A stretch of 64,000 nt of DNA from the NCBI GenBank assembly GCA_964106915.2, contig OZ066921.1; one strand, 5' to 3'. Position numbers: made by a program. The stretch comes from Podarcis gaigeae (taxonomy: Eukaryota). Positions within the stretch are counted from its first letter, which is position 1. Every line of letters begins with the position of its first letter. Shown here piece by piece: positions 15,301 through 27,300 of the stretch.

Positions 15301-18300
15301 CAGCCCAGCGTTTAAAAATTATGTCATGTTTCTGTAGTAATTCCATGGCATTGAGTCCCTCTCGGTCATGTCAAGATTATAGCAGCACATAATAAGGCTA
15401 CGCTACAAGTGTCTGTTTCATATTTCTCCAGAAGCAAATGTTGGTAATTTGGGTGGTCCAGGTGACAGTAGCCAGAGCAGGCCTTCGCATGAAGCGGTTG
15501 TTTTGTGCATCAAATTCCAGAGGGGTTACCATTCTCCTGCCTCTAATCTTCATCTCTGTGGCTGCAATCCAAAATATACTTACTTGAAAGTGAATCCCCT
15601 AGAAAAAATGCAAGGCTCGCTTCCAAGTATGGACTGGGATGTGCTTGTCATTAAAAATAAATAAAAATCAGCCAATTGCCTTAGGGTCATTTTCAATTTT
15701 CATACTGGGAGCAAAAACGTCAAAGGCCAGCCCAGGCAATCACACCTTTGACCTCACCCATTTATTACCCTCTGTTTGGGTAATCCTGATCCACCAGCAG
15801 CAGCGTGCAACTATCTAAAATGGGAAAGATGCCATTTTAGAGGCAAAGAAAATGTATCTTTTCAGGCATATTGCAAGATTGAGACGGGAGGGTATACATT
15901 TGAAGTGGTCAAGGAGTGCATTGGGAATCCTCAAAGCTGGTTCTAGTTAACAGTCAGGATGGGCGGCTCTGTTTGGATCGAAGAAATGGCTTCACATTCC
16001 GAGACATGATGTTTCTCCCCTGCCTTTCAGGTTCCCACACCATGGGAGACAATGAGGATCCTGACGCTGCAGCAGCACCAAGCATGCAGTGCTCCCCTTC
16101 AGACTCCACCACAGATGACAGCAGCACCCAAGATGATTATGTGCTCCCCGCCATCGTACGCTCTCCAACTTGTGCCCGCTGCCGCAATCATGGCATCCGG
16201 GTCCCACTGAAAGGCCACAAGAACACTTGCCAGTTCCAGGGGTGCCAGTGTGAAAAATGTATCCTGATCCTGTACGTCTGGTGGGAAAGCAAGATGGAAG
16301 TGGGTGCTGGCCCCAGACATTGTGGGGATTTGTGCTGAACGTAGCACAGTGCTGGTCTCAGTAGGTGGCACTGTTCCCTTATGAATAAGGCCTTCGTCAT
16401 ATTAAGCTGCAAGTACTACCTCTCCCCTTTGTGCTTTGCTAGCTCCGCGGCAAGCCCATTAATACTTGCAATGATGTACAGCACAATGTTTTTCTTTTTA
16501 AAGTACACTCCTTGCAGCTCCTTGCTCGGTATCCTAAAGGACGAATCTGTATGCAAATGTGCATGGATCACTTAGAAAACTGGAAAAAGGCAATCTTGGG
16601 AGGGTATGACCAGGAAGGTTAAATATGCATCTGAAACTCCAAAGCAGGGCAGGCCAACTTTTCATACCAAGTAGGCCGCAAGAGTCCTTCAACATGGAAC
16701 CAGCAGGCTACATACACGGCCTTGTCCATAGCTGTCAACCTTCCCTTTTTTTTGCGGGAAATTCCCTTATTCCAGCCCTGCTTCCGGAATGTTAGATATC
16801 CTGTAGACTGTCCCTAGGACAGGTTAGGCTACTGATCCCTTATTTTCAAATCTGAAAGTTGACAGCTATGGCCTTGTCACATGGGAGGAGGAATGCAAGG
16901 CCAAAACTTGATGCTCCCACCCCAAACCTTTGCACTGCCTTTCCAAAGCCGACTAGCAAGACGCCATGCTTTGCAAAGGAGGAGCTAGGCTCCGGCAGGG
17001 TTCTAGATCCCTCTCACTTCCTTACCAAAGCTGAGGAAGCACTAACTAGGCTTTGGGAAGGAGGCGGTAGGACCTTAGGACCCTGCCAGAGAGCCCTCAC
17101 ACCTTCTTCCCAAAGCCTAGCCCAGGAGCGGGGGGATCAAATGTTGCCAAGGGCTGCAAAAAAGGCCTCAAAGGCCATGTGTTGGACCACCCTGCTCCAA
17201 AGCGAGAAAAGCAGGTTTTGTTACATCGTAGGGAAAAGGCCAAGAACTCTTTGCTTGTGTGTGATTTGTATTTGCCCACTCTACCACTTTAATTCTTCAT
17301 TTATTTAATGGTTTCTCCTCCCAGGCAGAGACGCCGGGTCATGGCTGCCCAGGTGGCCTTGCGCAGGCAGCAGGAGATGGAGCTGAGGAAGCTGACCAGT
17401 GGTTTGCTGCAGCTTCAGGACAGCCCCACATCAAGCTCTCTCCACCCGGCCAAACTACCAAAAGGGATCAAACCTTGCAGGGGAGACATAGGTAAGCTGC
17501 TATGAGAACAGGAAAACATGGGACATTGAATTACTTTTATATAATTTTTTAAAAAATGCAAAGGACTGAACTGTACTCCTCATTGATCCAAATTTGCTTC
17601 CAGTCCTACATGTGTTTAGTATTATAGCATTTAGCATTAATTATATATACAATCCCATCAGTTTATATGGGAGCAACTGACTTTCTCTCGCCTCTGAGTT
17701 CTAAAACAAAAGAACACCATCAGAGAAAAAGGCGGGCATAAATACATATATAACAATAATAACACAGGCTGCCAAACATAGGGGAGCAGAAAATATATGT
17801 CCGATGTGAATGGCTGCAATGAAATAAATGAGGATTTGTGCTGGCAAGGAATGATTTTTGCAAATTCAGCTCCATGAGCCCTTGCAAACAGATGCTTTGA
17901 ACTTAGATGGAAAAGCTGATTAGGAGTACACACAAAAACTAATGAGTGGGAAGAGAGTTAAGTGTGTTTTCCTCACAGTTTTCCATGCTCCAAAATTCTC
18001 CACCTGAAACTGATTTCTCTCCCCCCCCCAAAAAAAAACCTGTTTGTGGGGTGTTTGTTAAAATGTGTATGTAGTTTTGTCCTTAGGATCAGGGACTAAG
18101 GGACTGCTGCAAGTCCAGCAACCTTTGGCTCTTTCTCTCCTTGAAAAAAATCCATTCACGCTGGTATTTAGAAGCATTCTGTGTCTGTGTTTGTTTTTTT
18201 AATTCTCCTTCCCATTTCCTTTTTTCTTTTGTTTGTCATGTCTTTTAGGTTGTAAGACTGTGGGCAGAGACTGTTGCACTACTGACATTTGTAAGCCAGC

Positions 18301-24300: not shown

Positions 24301-27300
24301 GCAGAATGCACAGCTGGGGAGAACACGAGCAATGATTGGCAAGGCTAAACGATATCCATTCAATCAAAGAATTGTTATTTGGCACAGGCAATTGGTAAAA
24401 TGACTAATAATTGGTCTGTATTTCACTCTGTATACGTGGAAAGCAGCCAGAGTTGCATCTCCATCCTATTCTAATCAGAAACCTTTATTAAAATATTCCA
24501 TGTTGCAAGTGCCCATACCACAGGCCAACCTGGGGTTAGATTAAAGTTGAGGACCTACAACTGTCTTGCTGCAGAGGCCGGTTGTGTGTCATTCTTATTG
24601 CTGCTACCACTTTCCTTTTTTCTTCTTAACTCTGGTGAGGAAAAGGAATCCAGAGCTATGAGCTGGTTACCTGCATGGGTGAAGCTTCAGCTAGCACCTT
24701 CTCATCAGGGTAACACTTCATGCTTCTGATAAAGTGGACTGTAACCCACAAAAGCTTATACTATAATACAATGGTTAAGTCTTTTAATGTGTTGCAGGTC
24801 TCTTTGTTCTTTCCCACCAGCAAAGAAGGATGCAAGATTTACCCTGCTCTTATTCTGTTTCCCAAACCCTGCAAAAAGAACAAGCAGAATCTGTACATGA
24901 GACGTTCATTAATCTAGTTCATGTCTGTTTGTTAATCAAGAGGTTAATAGTCTCTCCCCCTCTCTCTTCAGCCAACCTCTTCTGCTCATGTTTCTGTCTG
25001 GCCCACCAGGGGGTTTATCTTCTCCCCCCTTTCTGAACAACAGCTGCAGAAAGAGGCTGCTGAAGCCCTGATGGTGCTGAGAAATGCTCCCCAGCCAGGT
25101 CCCATTTTGGCCACTTCCAGTCTTCTGCCCCCTACCAGCTCTGCACCTGCTCTGTTGGCCTCATCAGCTTTCACATGCCCCTCATCAACATTTCACAATC
25201 CTGGGGTGACCAGTCCCTTCCAGCAGCATCCCTCATACTACATGCCTCCATGTGACATTCAGCCTGTAAAGGCTTCCAAGGACATAGCTTTGAAAGGAAC
25301 CCAGCTGTCCCCAGAGTCAGTTAGTGCTCATGGAGAACAGGCCCCCGGGCCTCTTTTCCTTCCTTTACTCCATGGAAGTGCTCTTCCCCAGCAGTACAAA
25401 AATGTCCATCTATTCTCAATTGCTCCACCCCGGGCACCCCAAGTGGCTACTTCTGTAATGGTTTCCAGCATCCAAGCTGTCAAACCCAGCCTCAGAGGGA
25501 CTTCCAGTGTCAGCCACCACCATTTTGTCCCAAACATGGCAACCTACCACACAGCCTCAGGCTCCATGCCGCATACCATCTGCATGCCACAAACTGTAGA
25601 CAGTGGTTGGATTTCAGAGACAAATGTTGAAGTCCTTGCTCCATCCAGCTCCACTCACAGTGGCCCTCAAATTCTGCCCTTCTGTGTCCCACCAATGGAT
25701 GTGTCTGTCACTTCAGTGCCCCTACAAACTGGCATTCCATGCACTCCATTTGGGATGGAACTGCACATGCTTCCTAGGCTGTCACTGTTGAATCCTACCC
25801 CCTACATTATAGCTCAGGAAGGTTTCCCAGAGCCAGTTTCCCCCCCAGGGCAGAAATCACAACAATGCCATCAGCAGCAGAGCCAAGAAGGAAAGCATTC
25901 CAGCAAGGGACAGGAAGGAGAAGAACATGGCAGAAGCCACAATGCGCCAGGGAGCAAGGATCCAGAAGGTACACTATAGACAATGCAGCTGCAATTGATG
26001 CCAGAAGGACTAATATGTGTTATCAACTATTTTTGAAAACTGTCTCCAAAAGAGCAATGACATGTGCAGAAAGCACCCCTGTACCCAAAATATAACTGAG
26101 GGTTATATAAAGTAATATAGAGATTTTATTTTATTTTTCTCACACACAACACACTAGAACTTGATGAAAGTGATTGGCAGTAGGATCAGGACTAACAACA
26201 AAAATACTTCACACTACACAATCAACATGGAATTGGCTGCAGAATGTTGTGATAGCCACTGGACTTAAAAAATAATAATTAGATAATTTTTTGCTGGAGG
26301 ATAACAGTTATTATGATAATAATATTGGTAAACCTTTCAGGGCTGTTGTAAGGGTTATTGAAAGAATGTATGCAAATATGTGCATTTGAGCTTTTAGAAA
26401 AACTCACTATACAAAACTGAAGTATTTTAAATTTTGGAAATGCCCTTCCATGATGCAGCACTGCTACCTGTAGCAATTTGTTTGCTTTCATAGGAATTTG
26501 CACAAAATGTTAAGCACATGTGTAGACAGACATGGAATCTGGAATGAGGGGATCTTTACTTCTCTTTGTAGATATTAATGCTGGGTTCTTGGGTTGTTGT
26601 TTTTTAAAAAAGGATTTGATCTGTTGATGTATAGGAAAATTCCTACCGTTAGCAAGAACAGTCCTTGCAGAGAAATTGTTAAGAATGCATGCAAACTAGC
26701 TTCAGCAGGTTTCTCCTTTATCAGGAAACCTGATTTCATTGACCAAAACATACCCACACCCATATTGCTTTTCTCCTAAACTGAGAATCTTCTGCTGATC
26801 TTCCCGTATACAAGGAAGTACCAAGTGGCAGTGTCCATGGTGCAAATAAGAAACCTGCTCTAGACATCTCATATAGCTTTCCTGGAATTCCTTTGTTTAA
26901 ACACCATCACCTTTGTATCAAGAGGTTTCACAGGAGGTTATACAGCTGGGCTCCTCAGAACACAGACAGAAATATTCAAATCACTTATTCCGGATTAGTC
27001 GCATTGCAGTCAACTTGAGAATCATGGGATTTAAGGATCATGGTCATAATGATGTGCAGAGTACCCAGAGTGTCTGAGAGAAAGAATTCAAAAGGGGCAA
27101 TTACGGTGTTGCCACTTAGGAGCTATTCATACAGGGCTCCTGCAGTGTGTCACCTTACTGCTTGTAGCTGACCTGGGTTCACACCGGATCAGGCAGAAGG
27201 CAATGCAATTCCAATTATGTTACCTTCTAGCTGACCTGGAACAAACCCAGGTCAGCCACATGGTATTTACAAATAGCAGGCTGACACCCTGCGGGAGGCC

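What the first reader, a model, noticed from the sequence alone, without database searches (positions are those of the whole stretch)
16042..25979. A squamate DMRTC2/DMRT7 with intact DM domain
Seen: a seven-exon open gene with all DM zinc ligands, an intron splitting the DM domain, and an LQKEAAEALMVL motif. Known: DMRTC2/Dmrt7 is required for male meiosis (XY-body stage) in mouse, was long described as mammal-specific, and is poorly characterised in reptiles. Inference: an intact lizard orthologue implies a meiotic role that predates the therian XY body.
Basis: partly seen in the sequence, partly recalled or inferred. Interest (0 to 1): 0.65.

Follow-up and report, generated by a model that had tools for sequence, protein, structure and literature searches.

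The report
Lizard DMRTC2 gene, already annotated

Summary
The window holds an intact DMRTC2/DMRT7 orthologue of a lacertid lizard on the + strand. The exon-7 peptide is 96% identical to the Podarcis raffonei protein that NCBI names DMRTC2 isoform X1.

The DM zinc module, the intron inside the DM domain and the LQKEAAEALMVL motif are all confirmed.

The CDS has eight coding exons (16042-27582, 2031 nt, 676 codons plus stop), not seven. The stop at 25979 comes from reading through the donor AAG|GTACAC. The missed exon 8 (27413-27582) carries the C-terminal motif conserved from sharks to mammals and the last part of Pfam PF15791.

The gene is not new. NCBI names it DMRTC2 in nine squamate genera. 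Reptile DMRT7 is in print from 2019 and in a 2026 preprint that lists P. raffonei.

Named relatives in a newt and in sharks share both C-terminal motifs.

The inference that a meiotic role predates the XY body rests on no data. No reptile expression or function was found.

Interest is low; novelty: already known.

The parts
16031..16041 (+). 5' untranslated start of the first coding exon, behind the acceptor tttcag|G at 16030/16031
   Evidence: Sequence read. The Zootoca model P0023 reads through this acceptor (residues 14-93 map to 16033-16272). Its upstream exon was not found in 9-16 kb of the window.
16042..16271 (+). Coding exon 1: ATG, a 39-residue variable N-terminus and the DM zinc module with all 8 ligands (16159-16269 matches DM profile positions 1-37)
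   Evidence: Pfam DM 4e-18. 76 of 77 residues identical to P0011. Donor CCT|GTACGT. Aligns to 4yj0 DMRT1 residues 6-42.
17325..17491 (+). Coding exon 2: DM recognition helix (QRRRVMAAQVALRRQQE...) and a linker
   Evidence: Acceptor cccag|G and donor TAG|GTAAGC. Aligns to 4yj0 residues 44-62. 56 of 57 residues identical to P0011; that alignment runs 5 nt past the donor, where the one mismatch lies.
19124..19221 (+). Coding exon 3 (basic stretch RRQRRRAARK)
   Evidence: tblastn of P0011, 32 of 33 identical. ACAG|GCA ... AAG|GTGAGG. No Pfam match.
19923..20097 (+). Coding exon 4 (proline-rich), with a second in-frame donor 9 nt upstream at 20088
   Evidence: tblastn of P0011, 57 of 59 identical, using the distal donor. 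Both donors read.
20978..21095 (+). Coding exon 5
   Evidence: tblastn of P0011 and five other squamate proteins. TGCAG|GTT ... CAG|GTATTT.
23622..23697 (+). Coding exon 6
   Evidence: tblastn of P0011. TCCAG|CCG ... CAG|GTATTT.
24972..25968 (+). Coding exon 7 (997 nt): conserved helix motif LQKEAAEALMVL at 25044-25079, then a spacer of about 300 residues predicted to be disordered
   Evidence: Pfam PF15791 positions 45-79, 27.6 bits against cut-off 27. 325 of 339 aligned residues identical to P0011. Donor AAG|GTACAC at 25968|25969. Helix 310-325 in the P0011 model.
25969..25979 (+).
   Evidence: Homologues leave the frame here and resume at 27413.
27413..27582 (+).
   Evidence: 55 of 56 residues identical to P0011. 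Pfam PF15791 positions 66-118 of 119, E 1.4e-5, 26 bits, just under the cut-off of 27 when scanned alone. Motif conserved from sharks to mammals.
27958..28027 (+). Two AATAAA hexamers (27958, 28022), 376 and 440 nt after the stop: candidate polyadenylation signals
   Evidence: Pattern only, not verified.

Best explanation
The locus is the single-copy DMRTC2 (DMRT7) gene of a lacertid lizard.

Structure. There are eight coding exons on the + strand, 16042-27582, encoding 676 residues, and probably one further upstream exon. This is the layout given for mouse Dmrt7: nine exons, ATG in exon 2, DM domain in exons 2 and 3.

Protein. It has a DM zinc module plus recognition helix at the N-terminus. 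About 570 residues predicted to be disordered follow. Only two short islands in that stretch are deeply conserved: an amphipathic helix (LQKEAAEALMVL) and the C-terminal ...SLSIGQMGSISLPT.

Mechanism.
- Shown for mouse DMRT7, inferred here: the DM domain binds DSX-like DNA sites, weakly on its own.
- Inferred: the two conserved C-terminal islands are docking sites for partner proteins.
- Inferred, about 0.7: it is expressed mainly in testis germ cells.
- Inferred, about 0.4: it is needed for meiotic prophase.

A role tied to a heteromorphic sex-chromosome body is not implied.
For: Identity:
[quoted passage not shown] It is 59-75% identical to the other 11 proteins of that search, 8 of them named DMRTC2 (12 hits among 3761 candidates).
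- The exon-1 search listed 120 of 466 hits. The top hits are sauropsid DMRTC2, followed by mammalian DMRTC2. No entry is named DMRT1, DMRT2 or DMRTB1.
- PF15791, the family of DMRTC1 and C2, is matched by exon 7 and by exon 8.
- The motif and the C-terminus align across 23 named proteins from sharks to mammals.
- In the DM tree, 28 C2 rows, including the two window exons entered separately, split from 4 outgroup rows at 97/98.
- The exon-1 DM part scores 58-66 bits to mammalian DMRTC2 representatives against 47.9 bits to DMRT1 chain 4yj0.

Structure:
- All 14 splice sites are GT-AG, there is no internal stop, and the sum is 2031 nt.
- The mouse layout is from Kim 2007 (passages).
- Human and mouse dmrt7 are tabulated with 8 exons in Dong 2020 (passages).

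Fold: in the AlphaFold2 model of P0011 only H71-105 (pLDDT 80-94) and H310-325 (about 71) are ordered. 567 of 676 residues have pLDDT below 50.

DNA binding by mouse DMRT7: Murphy 2007 (passages).

Neighbours: GBP-like upstream, as the 2026 preprint reports for alligator and anole. PAFAH1B3-like and CIC lie downstream.
Against: - No transcript data exist for this window. Every junction is inferred from protein models of other species, which are themselves mostly automatic predictions.
- DMRTB1 and DMRT2 could not be put into my tree.
- The only DMRT1-type row in the tree is the first DM domain of a fused teleost model (P0036).
- Exon 8 alone falls 1 bit short of the Pfam cut-off.
- RPS19, a mammalian flank reported as conserved in alligator and anole, is not in the window (4 probes).
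- Function, expression and partners are inference only. The fold has low overall confidence (mean pLDDT 41).
Confidence: 0.9

Rival explanations
1. The reader's seven-exon form is a real alternative isoform. Intron 7 is retained, translation stops at 25977-25979, and the protein lacks the C-terminal motif.
For: The frame stays open for only three codons past the donor and ends in TAG. The donor AAG|GTACAC is not strong. Three unnamed single-contig ORF predictions run to 25976 (P0002, P0004, P0006).
Against: Those three look like plain ORF calls on short genomic contigs; one of them starts upstream of the exon-7 acceptor. All 6 full-length squamate proteins tried continue into exon 8. Exon 8 holds one of only three deeply conserved islands.
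Confidence: 0.08
2. It is a different DMRT paralogue (DMRTB1, DMRT1 or DMRT3/A-type) mislabelled as C2.
For: The DM zinc module alone discriminates weakly: by my count from the printed alignments, 24 of 37 residues match DMRT1 and 26 of 37 match Bos DMRTC2. A few DMRT3 entries appear among the exon-1 hits.
Against: No Dmrt1 domain (PF12374) or DMA domain (PF03474) appears in any exon. PF15791 and both C2 motifs are present. The DM domain is split as in mouse Dmrt7. In the part aligned to DMRT1 the recognition helix carries RRRV where DMRT1 has RQRV; Murphy 2007 says DMRT7 matches 13 of 14 helix positions and DMRT6 differs at six (passage).
Confidence: 0.01
3. It is a decaying or non-functional relic kept only as an annotation.
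For: Birds are reported to lack DMRT7, so loss does happen in sauropsids. Most of the protein is poorly conserved and predicted to be disordered.
Against: Eight exons are open with intact splice sites. Protein length is held at 661-693 aa in 8 of the 9 aligned squamates, geckos and snakes included; Elgaria is 806 aa through an N-terminal extension. The motif is 100% identical and the DM module 91% identical to P0011 across the other 8 squamates.
Confidence: 0.03
4. The main product is a read-through DMRTC2-PAFAH1B3 fusion transcript.
For: Four database models fuse the two genes: Phrynocephalus P0018, Sceloporus P0022, Caretta P0029 and Mauremys mutica P0032. Their C-terminal parts map to 32924-36995 on the same strand.
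Against: The conserved stop and two AATAAA hexamers follow exon 8. Nine squamate models named DMRTC2 end at or within nine residues of the C-terminal motif. The fused models skip or truncate exon 8, as merged predictions tend to do.
Confidence: 0.04

Closest known systems
Podarcis raffonei DMRTC2 isoform X1 (P0011; NCBI automatic annotation) and the partial Zootoca vivipara DMRTC2 (P0023)
   Same: Same length (676 aa) and the same eight coding exons. Identity is 96-99% over exons 1-4, 7 and 8. Within the true bounds of exons 5 and 6 the printed alignments show no mismatch. The DM domain is identical.
   Different: Differences counted: 1 in exon 1, 1 in exon 3, 2 in exon 4, 14 in the exon-7 alignment and 1 in exon 8. 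The window therefore comes from another lacertid or another individual. The species was not determined.
Mouse and other mammalian DMRT7/DMRTC2 (Kim 2007; Kawamata and Nishimori 2006, cited there)
   Same: DM domain split over two exons. ATG preceded by an upstream exon. Eight coding exons. LQ[KR]EAAEAL helix motif and ...IG[QR][ML]GSISL C-terminus.
   Different: The lizard protein is nearly twice as long (676 aa against 366-394 aa). The spacer between the motif and the C-terminus is 333-359 residues in squamates against 61-70 in mammals. The flanks differ: GBP / PAFAH1B3 / CIC in the window, with no RPS19. Function is known only in mammals.
Shark 'DMRTC2-like' proteins (Pristiophorus P0038, Scyliorhinus P0039, Stegostoma P0056) and newt DMRTC2 (Lissotriton P0111)
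   Same: Same DM signature, same helix motif and same C-terminal motif. PF15791 is matched.
   Different: The sharks also carry a DMA domain (PF03474), which no window exon matches. The spacer is 124-190 residues in sharks and 500 in the newt.
DMRT1 (PDB 4yj0) and Drosophila DSX (PDB 1lpv)
   Same: Same DM zinc module and recognition helix, so probably the same mode of DNA binding.
   Different: No Dmrt1 C-terminal domain. RRRV in place of RQRV in the helix. The DM domain is interrupted by an intron.

Membership tests
DMRTC2 / DMRT7 | DM domain with six Cys and two His zinc ligands plus a recognition helix | tested here: met
   Pfam DM 4e-18 on exon 1. Ligands C44, C47, H50, H59, C63, C68, C70 and C73. 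Helix in exon 2 aligned to 4yj0 residues 44-62.
DMRTC2 / DMRT7 | DM domain encoded by two exons (mouse: exons 2 and 3) | tested here: met
   Intron 16272-17324 lies between the zinc module and the helix. The mouse statement is from Kim 2007 (passage). The exact residue of the mouse intron was not seen.
DMRTC2 / DMRT7 | C-terminal DMRT-like domain (Pfam PF15791, DMRTC1 and C2 only) | tested here: met
   Exon 7: 27.6 bits against cut-off 27, profile positions 45-79. Exon 8: 26.0 bits, positions 66-118. The near-identical P0011 as a whole scores 37.5 bits. In squamates the domain is split by a spacer of about 300 residues.
DMRTC2 / DMRT7 | Closest named relatives are DMRTC2, searched exon by exon | tested here: met
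   No DMRT1, DMRT2 or DMRTB1 name appears among the 120 listed exon-1 hits.
DMRTC2 / DMRT7 | DM domain groups with DMRTC2 in a phylogeny of all DMRT paralogues | tested here: inconclusive
   The C2 clade is separated from three DMRT3-type rows and one DMRT1-type row at 97/98. DMRTB1, DMRT2 and DMRTA1/2 were not available. The published tree (2026 preprint, Fig. 1b) was not visible.
DMRTC2 / DMRT7 | Eight coding exons (nine in all) | tested here: met
   Eight coding exons, plus an acceptor 11 nt before the ATG. Compare Kim 2007 and Dong 2020.
DMRTC2 / DMRT7 | Conserved neighbourhood | tested here: inconclusive
   A GBP-like gene lies upstream, as reported for alligator and anole. RPS19 is absent from the window. 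PAFAH1B3 and CIC lie downstream; that they share the human chromosome band of DMRTC2 is recalled, not tested.
DMRTC2 / DMRT7 | Testis germ-cell expression, sex-body localisation, requirement for male meiosis | not testable with these tools
   No expression data were on hand. The 2026 preprint gives none for reptiles (section 12).
DMRT1 | Dmrt1 C-terminal domain (PF12374) | tested here: not met
   No match in any of the eight exon peptides or in P0011.
DMRT3 / DMRTA1 / DMRTA2 | DMA domain (PF03474) | tested here: not met
   No Pfam match. The shark DMA region aligns by position to the exon 4/5 junction, but hhalign gives P 0.04 and 0.47.

The most novel reading that the evidence does not exclude
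DMRTC2 is neither a mammalian nor an amniote invention. It is a gene of all jawed vertebrates that began as a DM + DMA protein, as in sharks. It lost the DMA domain in tetrapods and was lost outright in birds. On this reading its ancestral job was a germ-line, meiotic-prophase one, independent of heteromorphic sex chromosomes, and the XY-body association of therians is a later specialisation. A lacertid, where males are the homogametic sex (recalled), would be a natural test case.
Probability: 0.3. Interest if true: 0.5.

Novelty: already known. Interest (0 to 1): 0.2.

Why it matters
DMRT7 was put forward as the only mammal-specific protein essential for meiosis, and its origin was linked to the rise of mammalian sex chromatin (Kim 2007). 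Intact orthologues in reptiles remove the basis for that link.

That point is already made in print and in public annotation, so this window adds nothing to it.

What the work here adds is small:
- a corrected gene model with eight coding exons;
- the observation that the missed last exon carries one of only three deeply conserved parts of the protein;
- the observation that named shark and newt relatives share both C-terminal motifs, which pushes the gene's origin well below amniotes.

In the library searched, no paper linking DMRT7 or DMRTC2 to sharks was found, and coelacanth is tabulated without the gene. The searches were 'dmrt7'+'coelacanth' (2 papers), 'dmrtc2'+'shark' (1 paper, on sheep testis by its title), and the 2026 preprint, which holds 0 occurrences of 'shark' and 0 of 'amphibian'.

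Tried and rejected
- Naming the unnamed DM-domain representatives from the whole-library search, to add DMRTB1 and DMRT2 to the tree. 
- The whole-library search with exon 1 (2072 hits at E<=1e-3, 68 at <=1e-10). It mostly returned unnamed proteins with two or more DM domains and gave no usable vertebrate paralogues.
- A DMA-domain relic in tetrapod C2. The positional alignment is suggestive, but hhalign gives P 0.04 against the shark plus DMRT3 set and 0.47 against DMRT3 alone. Not supported.
- Upstream exon. The 13 N-terminal residues of the Zootoca model found no match of 8 or more of 13 in 9-16 kb of the window.
- RPS19 flank. No hit with four mammalian fused models as probes.
- One literature search was badly framed and useless (12,335 papers).
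- Rfam found nothing in the locus.
- The window's exons were never joined into one protein for a search, fold or tree. The database protein P0011 stood in for the full length.
- The supplements of the 2019 and 2026 papers (tables and figures listing species and synteny) could not be seen.

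
Full report
**What the window is.** It has no N and shows vertebrate-type CpG depletion.
- one starting MGDNEDP... with a DM zinc module;
- one with QRRRVMAAQVALRRQQ;
- a 342-codon ORF with LQKEAAEALMVL.

Pfam gives DM (PF00751) for the first: E 4e-18, 65.5 bits, profile positions 1-37 of 47. It gives DMRT-like (PF15791, 'DMRTC1 and C2') for the third: 27.6 bits against a cut-off of 27, profile positions 45-79 of 119.

**Checking the observation.**
- The ATG is at 16042.
- All eight zinc ligands lie in exon 1.
- Exon 1 ends at 16271 (CCT|GTACGT) and exon 2 starts at 17325 (cccag|G). The split codon gives Leu, and the recognition helix follows.
- Against the solved DMRT1 DM domain (4yj0), exon 1 covers residues 6-42 and exon 2 covers residues 44-62. 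The intron therefore falls between the zinc module and the helix.
- The motif LQKEAAEALMVL is at 25044-25079.

**The gene model.** I searched the model exon by exon. The joined protein was not built, searched or folded.
- The exon-7 peptide (335 aa) found 10 proteins among 2127 candidates of similar length. The best was a Rhineura floridana 'uncharacterized protein' at 81%.
- Among longer proteins it found 12 of 3761 candidates. [quoted passage not shown]
- Mapping P0011 and five other full-length squamate proteins back to the window by tblastn gave eight collinear blocks in all six.
- Reading the borders gave eight exons, every intron GT-AG: 16042-16271, 17325-17491, 19124-19221, 19923-20097, 20978-21095, 23622-23697, 24972-25968 and 27413-27582.
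- The lengths add up to 2031 nt, that is 676 codons plus TAG, the length of P0011. No exon has an internal stop in its phase.

Exon 8 alone matches PF15791 positions 66-118 (E 1.4e-5, 26 bits). In squamates this Pfam domain is therefore split by a spacer of about 300 residues.

Exon 4 has a second in-frame donor 9 nt upstream.

An acceptor tttcag|G lies 11 nt before the ATG. The partial Zootoca vivipara DMRTC2 model reads through it. Its upstream exon was not found in the window.

[quoted passage not shown] Human and mouse dmrt7 are tabulated with eight exons (Dong 2020, passages).

**Orthology.**
- The exon-1 search returned 466 hits at E<=10 among 483 candidates, of which the best 120 were listed. 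From the top down these were Zootoca and Podarcis DMRTC2 (99%), other squamates, turtles, crocodilians and mammals including monotremes, with a newt and sharks among them. Named entries outside C2 included three DMRT3-type records. One shark record is named 'A2-like' but carries PF15791. None was named DMRT1, DMRT2 or DMRTB1.
- An alignment of 23 named proteins shows the DM domain, the helix motif (E/Q-Q-L-Q/H-K/R-E/A-A-A-E-A-L) and the C-terminal ...S-L-x-I-G-Q/R-L/M-G-S-I/M-S-L conserved from sharks to mammals.
- A table of identity to P0011 by region shows that only three islands are deeply conserved:

| Region | Other squamates | Mammals | Sharks |
|---|---|---|---|
| DM zinc module | 91% | 71% | 86% |
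| Helix motif | 100% | 68% | 80% |
| C-terminus in exon 8 | 85% | 52% | 63% |
| Exon-7 spacer | 63% | 5% | 6% |

- A DM-domain tree of 32 rows and 68 columns puts 28 C2 rows, the window's exon 1 and exon 2 entered separately, apart from four outgroup rows at 97/98. The outgroup is three DMRT3-type rows and one DMRT1-type row. Inside the C2 clade most forks are open.
The rest rests on the following evidence:
  - PF15791 and the two C2 motifs are present.
  - The DM domain is split by an intron.
  - Over the part aligned to DMRT1 the helix has RRRV where DMRT1 has RQRV.
  - Murphy 2007 states that DMRT7 matches 13 of 14 helix positions and DMRT6 differs at six (passage).

**Surroundings.**
- Upstream on the - strand is a guanylate-binding-protein gene: GBP N-terminal domain 8.7e-20 at 8334-8615 and GBP_C 2.4e-44 at 5338-5811.
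- Downstream on the + strand, 32924-36995 matches the PAFAH1B3 parts of four database models that fuse DMRTC2 with that gene.
- Further on, on the - strand, an HMG-box ORF matches 'Protein capicua homolog' (7m5w, 9.7e-39).
- No RPS19 exon was found with four probes.
- The 2026 preprint reports GBP1 and RPS19 as the mammalian flanks kept in alligator and anole (section 11).
- That PAFAH1B3 and CIC share the human chromosome band of DMRTC2 is my recollection and was not tested.

**How it probably works.** An AlphaFold2 model of P0011 was built with a 22-row alignment (mean pLDDT 41).
- It orders only the recognition helix (residues 71-105, block means 80-94) and a helix at 310-325 over the conserved motif (about 71).
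- 567 of 676 residues are below pLDDT 50.

Mouse DMRT7 selects DSX-like sites but binds them much less well than DMRT1 does. The authors suggest missing partners or modifications as possible reasons (Murphy 2007, passages).

My reading is a sequence-specific DM-domain factor. Its long disordered tail presents two short conserved docking motifs. The DNA-binding step is shown for the mouse protein and inferred here. The docking role is inference. Germ-line expression and a meiotic requirement in lizards are guesses from the mammalian data (about 0.7 and 0.4).

**What is known.**
- Kim 2007 called DMRT7 mammal-specific and tied its origin to mammalian sex chromatin (passages).
- Dong 2020 tabulated it as absent from Anolis, Xenopus and coelacanth.
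- Mawaribuchi 2019 already wrote 'mammalian- and reptilian-specific DMRT7' (passages; their Fig. S1 not seen).
- The July 2026 preprint of van der Ploeg, Shearwin-Whyatt and Grutzner reports reptile orthologues in A. carolinensis, A. mississippiensis, P. raffonei and C. aspera. [quoted passage not shown] It gives no reptile expression data (section 12). Its figures and supplementary tables were not visible.
- Searches: 'dmrt7'+'mammal-specific' 13 papers; 'dmrtc2'+'reptiles' 2; 'dmrt7'+'turtle' 8; 'dmrtc2'+'lizard' 1; 'dmrt7'+'coelacanth' 2; 'dmrtc2'+'shark' 1, on sheep testis by its title; 'dmrt7'+'reptil' 11.
- Veith 2006 is known to me only through these citations.

**Verdict.** This is a real, intact and correctly named gene. 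It is already annotated and already reported for reptiles. The only mildly new point lies outside the window: named shark and newt relatives share both C2 motifs, and the sharks also carry a DMA domain. This suggests an origin in the ancestor of jawed vertebrates.

Noticed in passing
window 14582-14774: Three ATTGG (CCAAT on the - strand) at 14582, 14729 and 14770 sit in a CpG-richer patch about 1.3-1.5 kb upstream of the ATG. The last two are 41 nt apart, the same spacing as the two NF-Y boxes of the mouse Dmrt7 promoter (-48 and -7; Hou 2010, passages). CCAAT is under-represented in the window as a whole (121 found, 189 expected). This may be the promoter and a non-coding first exon.
   Followed up: partly
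window 20088 and 20097: Exon 4 has two in-frame GT donors 9 nt apart (AAG|GTACGT and TAG|GTGGGT). The Podarcis isoform X1 uses the distal one, which adds three residues.
   Followed up: partly
window 27582-36995; proteins P0018, P0022, P0029, P0032: DMRTC2 and a PAFAH1B3-like gene lie on the same strand about 5.3 kb apart. Database models in two lizards and two turtles fuse them. The adjacency therefore seems old in sauropsids; the fusions look like merged predictions.
   Followed up: partly
window 4161-8615, - strand: A guanylate-binding-protein gene (GBP N- and C-terminal Pfam domains) lies upstream of DMRTC2. A tRNA-like Rfam hit lies inside it at 7984-8055 (31.4 bits against a gathering score of 29), possibly SINE-derived.
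   Followed up: no
window about 44000-63000, - strand: A capicua (CIC) orthologue: the HMG-box ORF 57011-57691 matches PDB 7m5w at 9.7e-39. A 471-codon open exon at 49870-51282 has no Pfam match.
   Followed up: partly
proteins P0038, P0039, P0056 (sharks); window exon 4/5 junction: Shark DMRTC2-like proteins carry a DMA domain (PF03474) between the DM domain and the C2 motifs. By position it aligns with the end of exon 4 and the start of exon 5 of tetrapod C2, but profile comparison is not significant (P 0.04 and 0.47).
   Followed up: yes
proteins aligned: The spacer between the helix motif and the C-terminal motif varies about eight-fold: 61-70 residues in mammals, 124-190 in sharks, about 250 in crocodilians, 333-359 in squamates and 500 in a newt.
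   Followed up: partly
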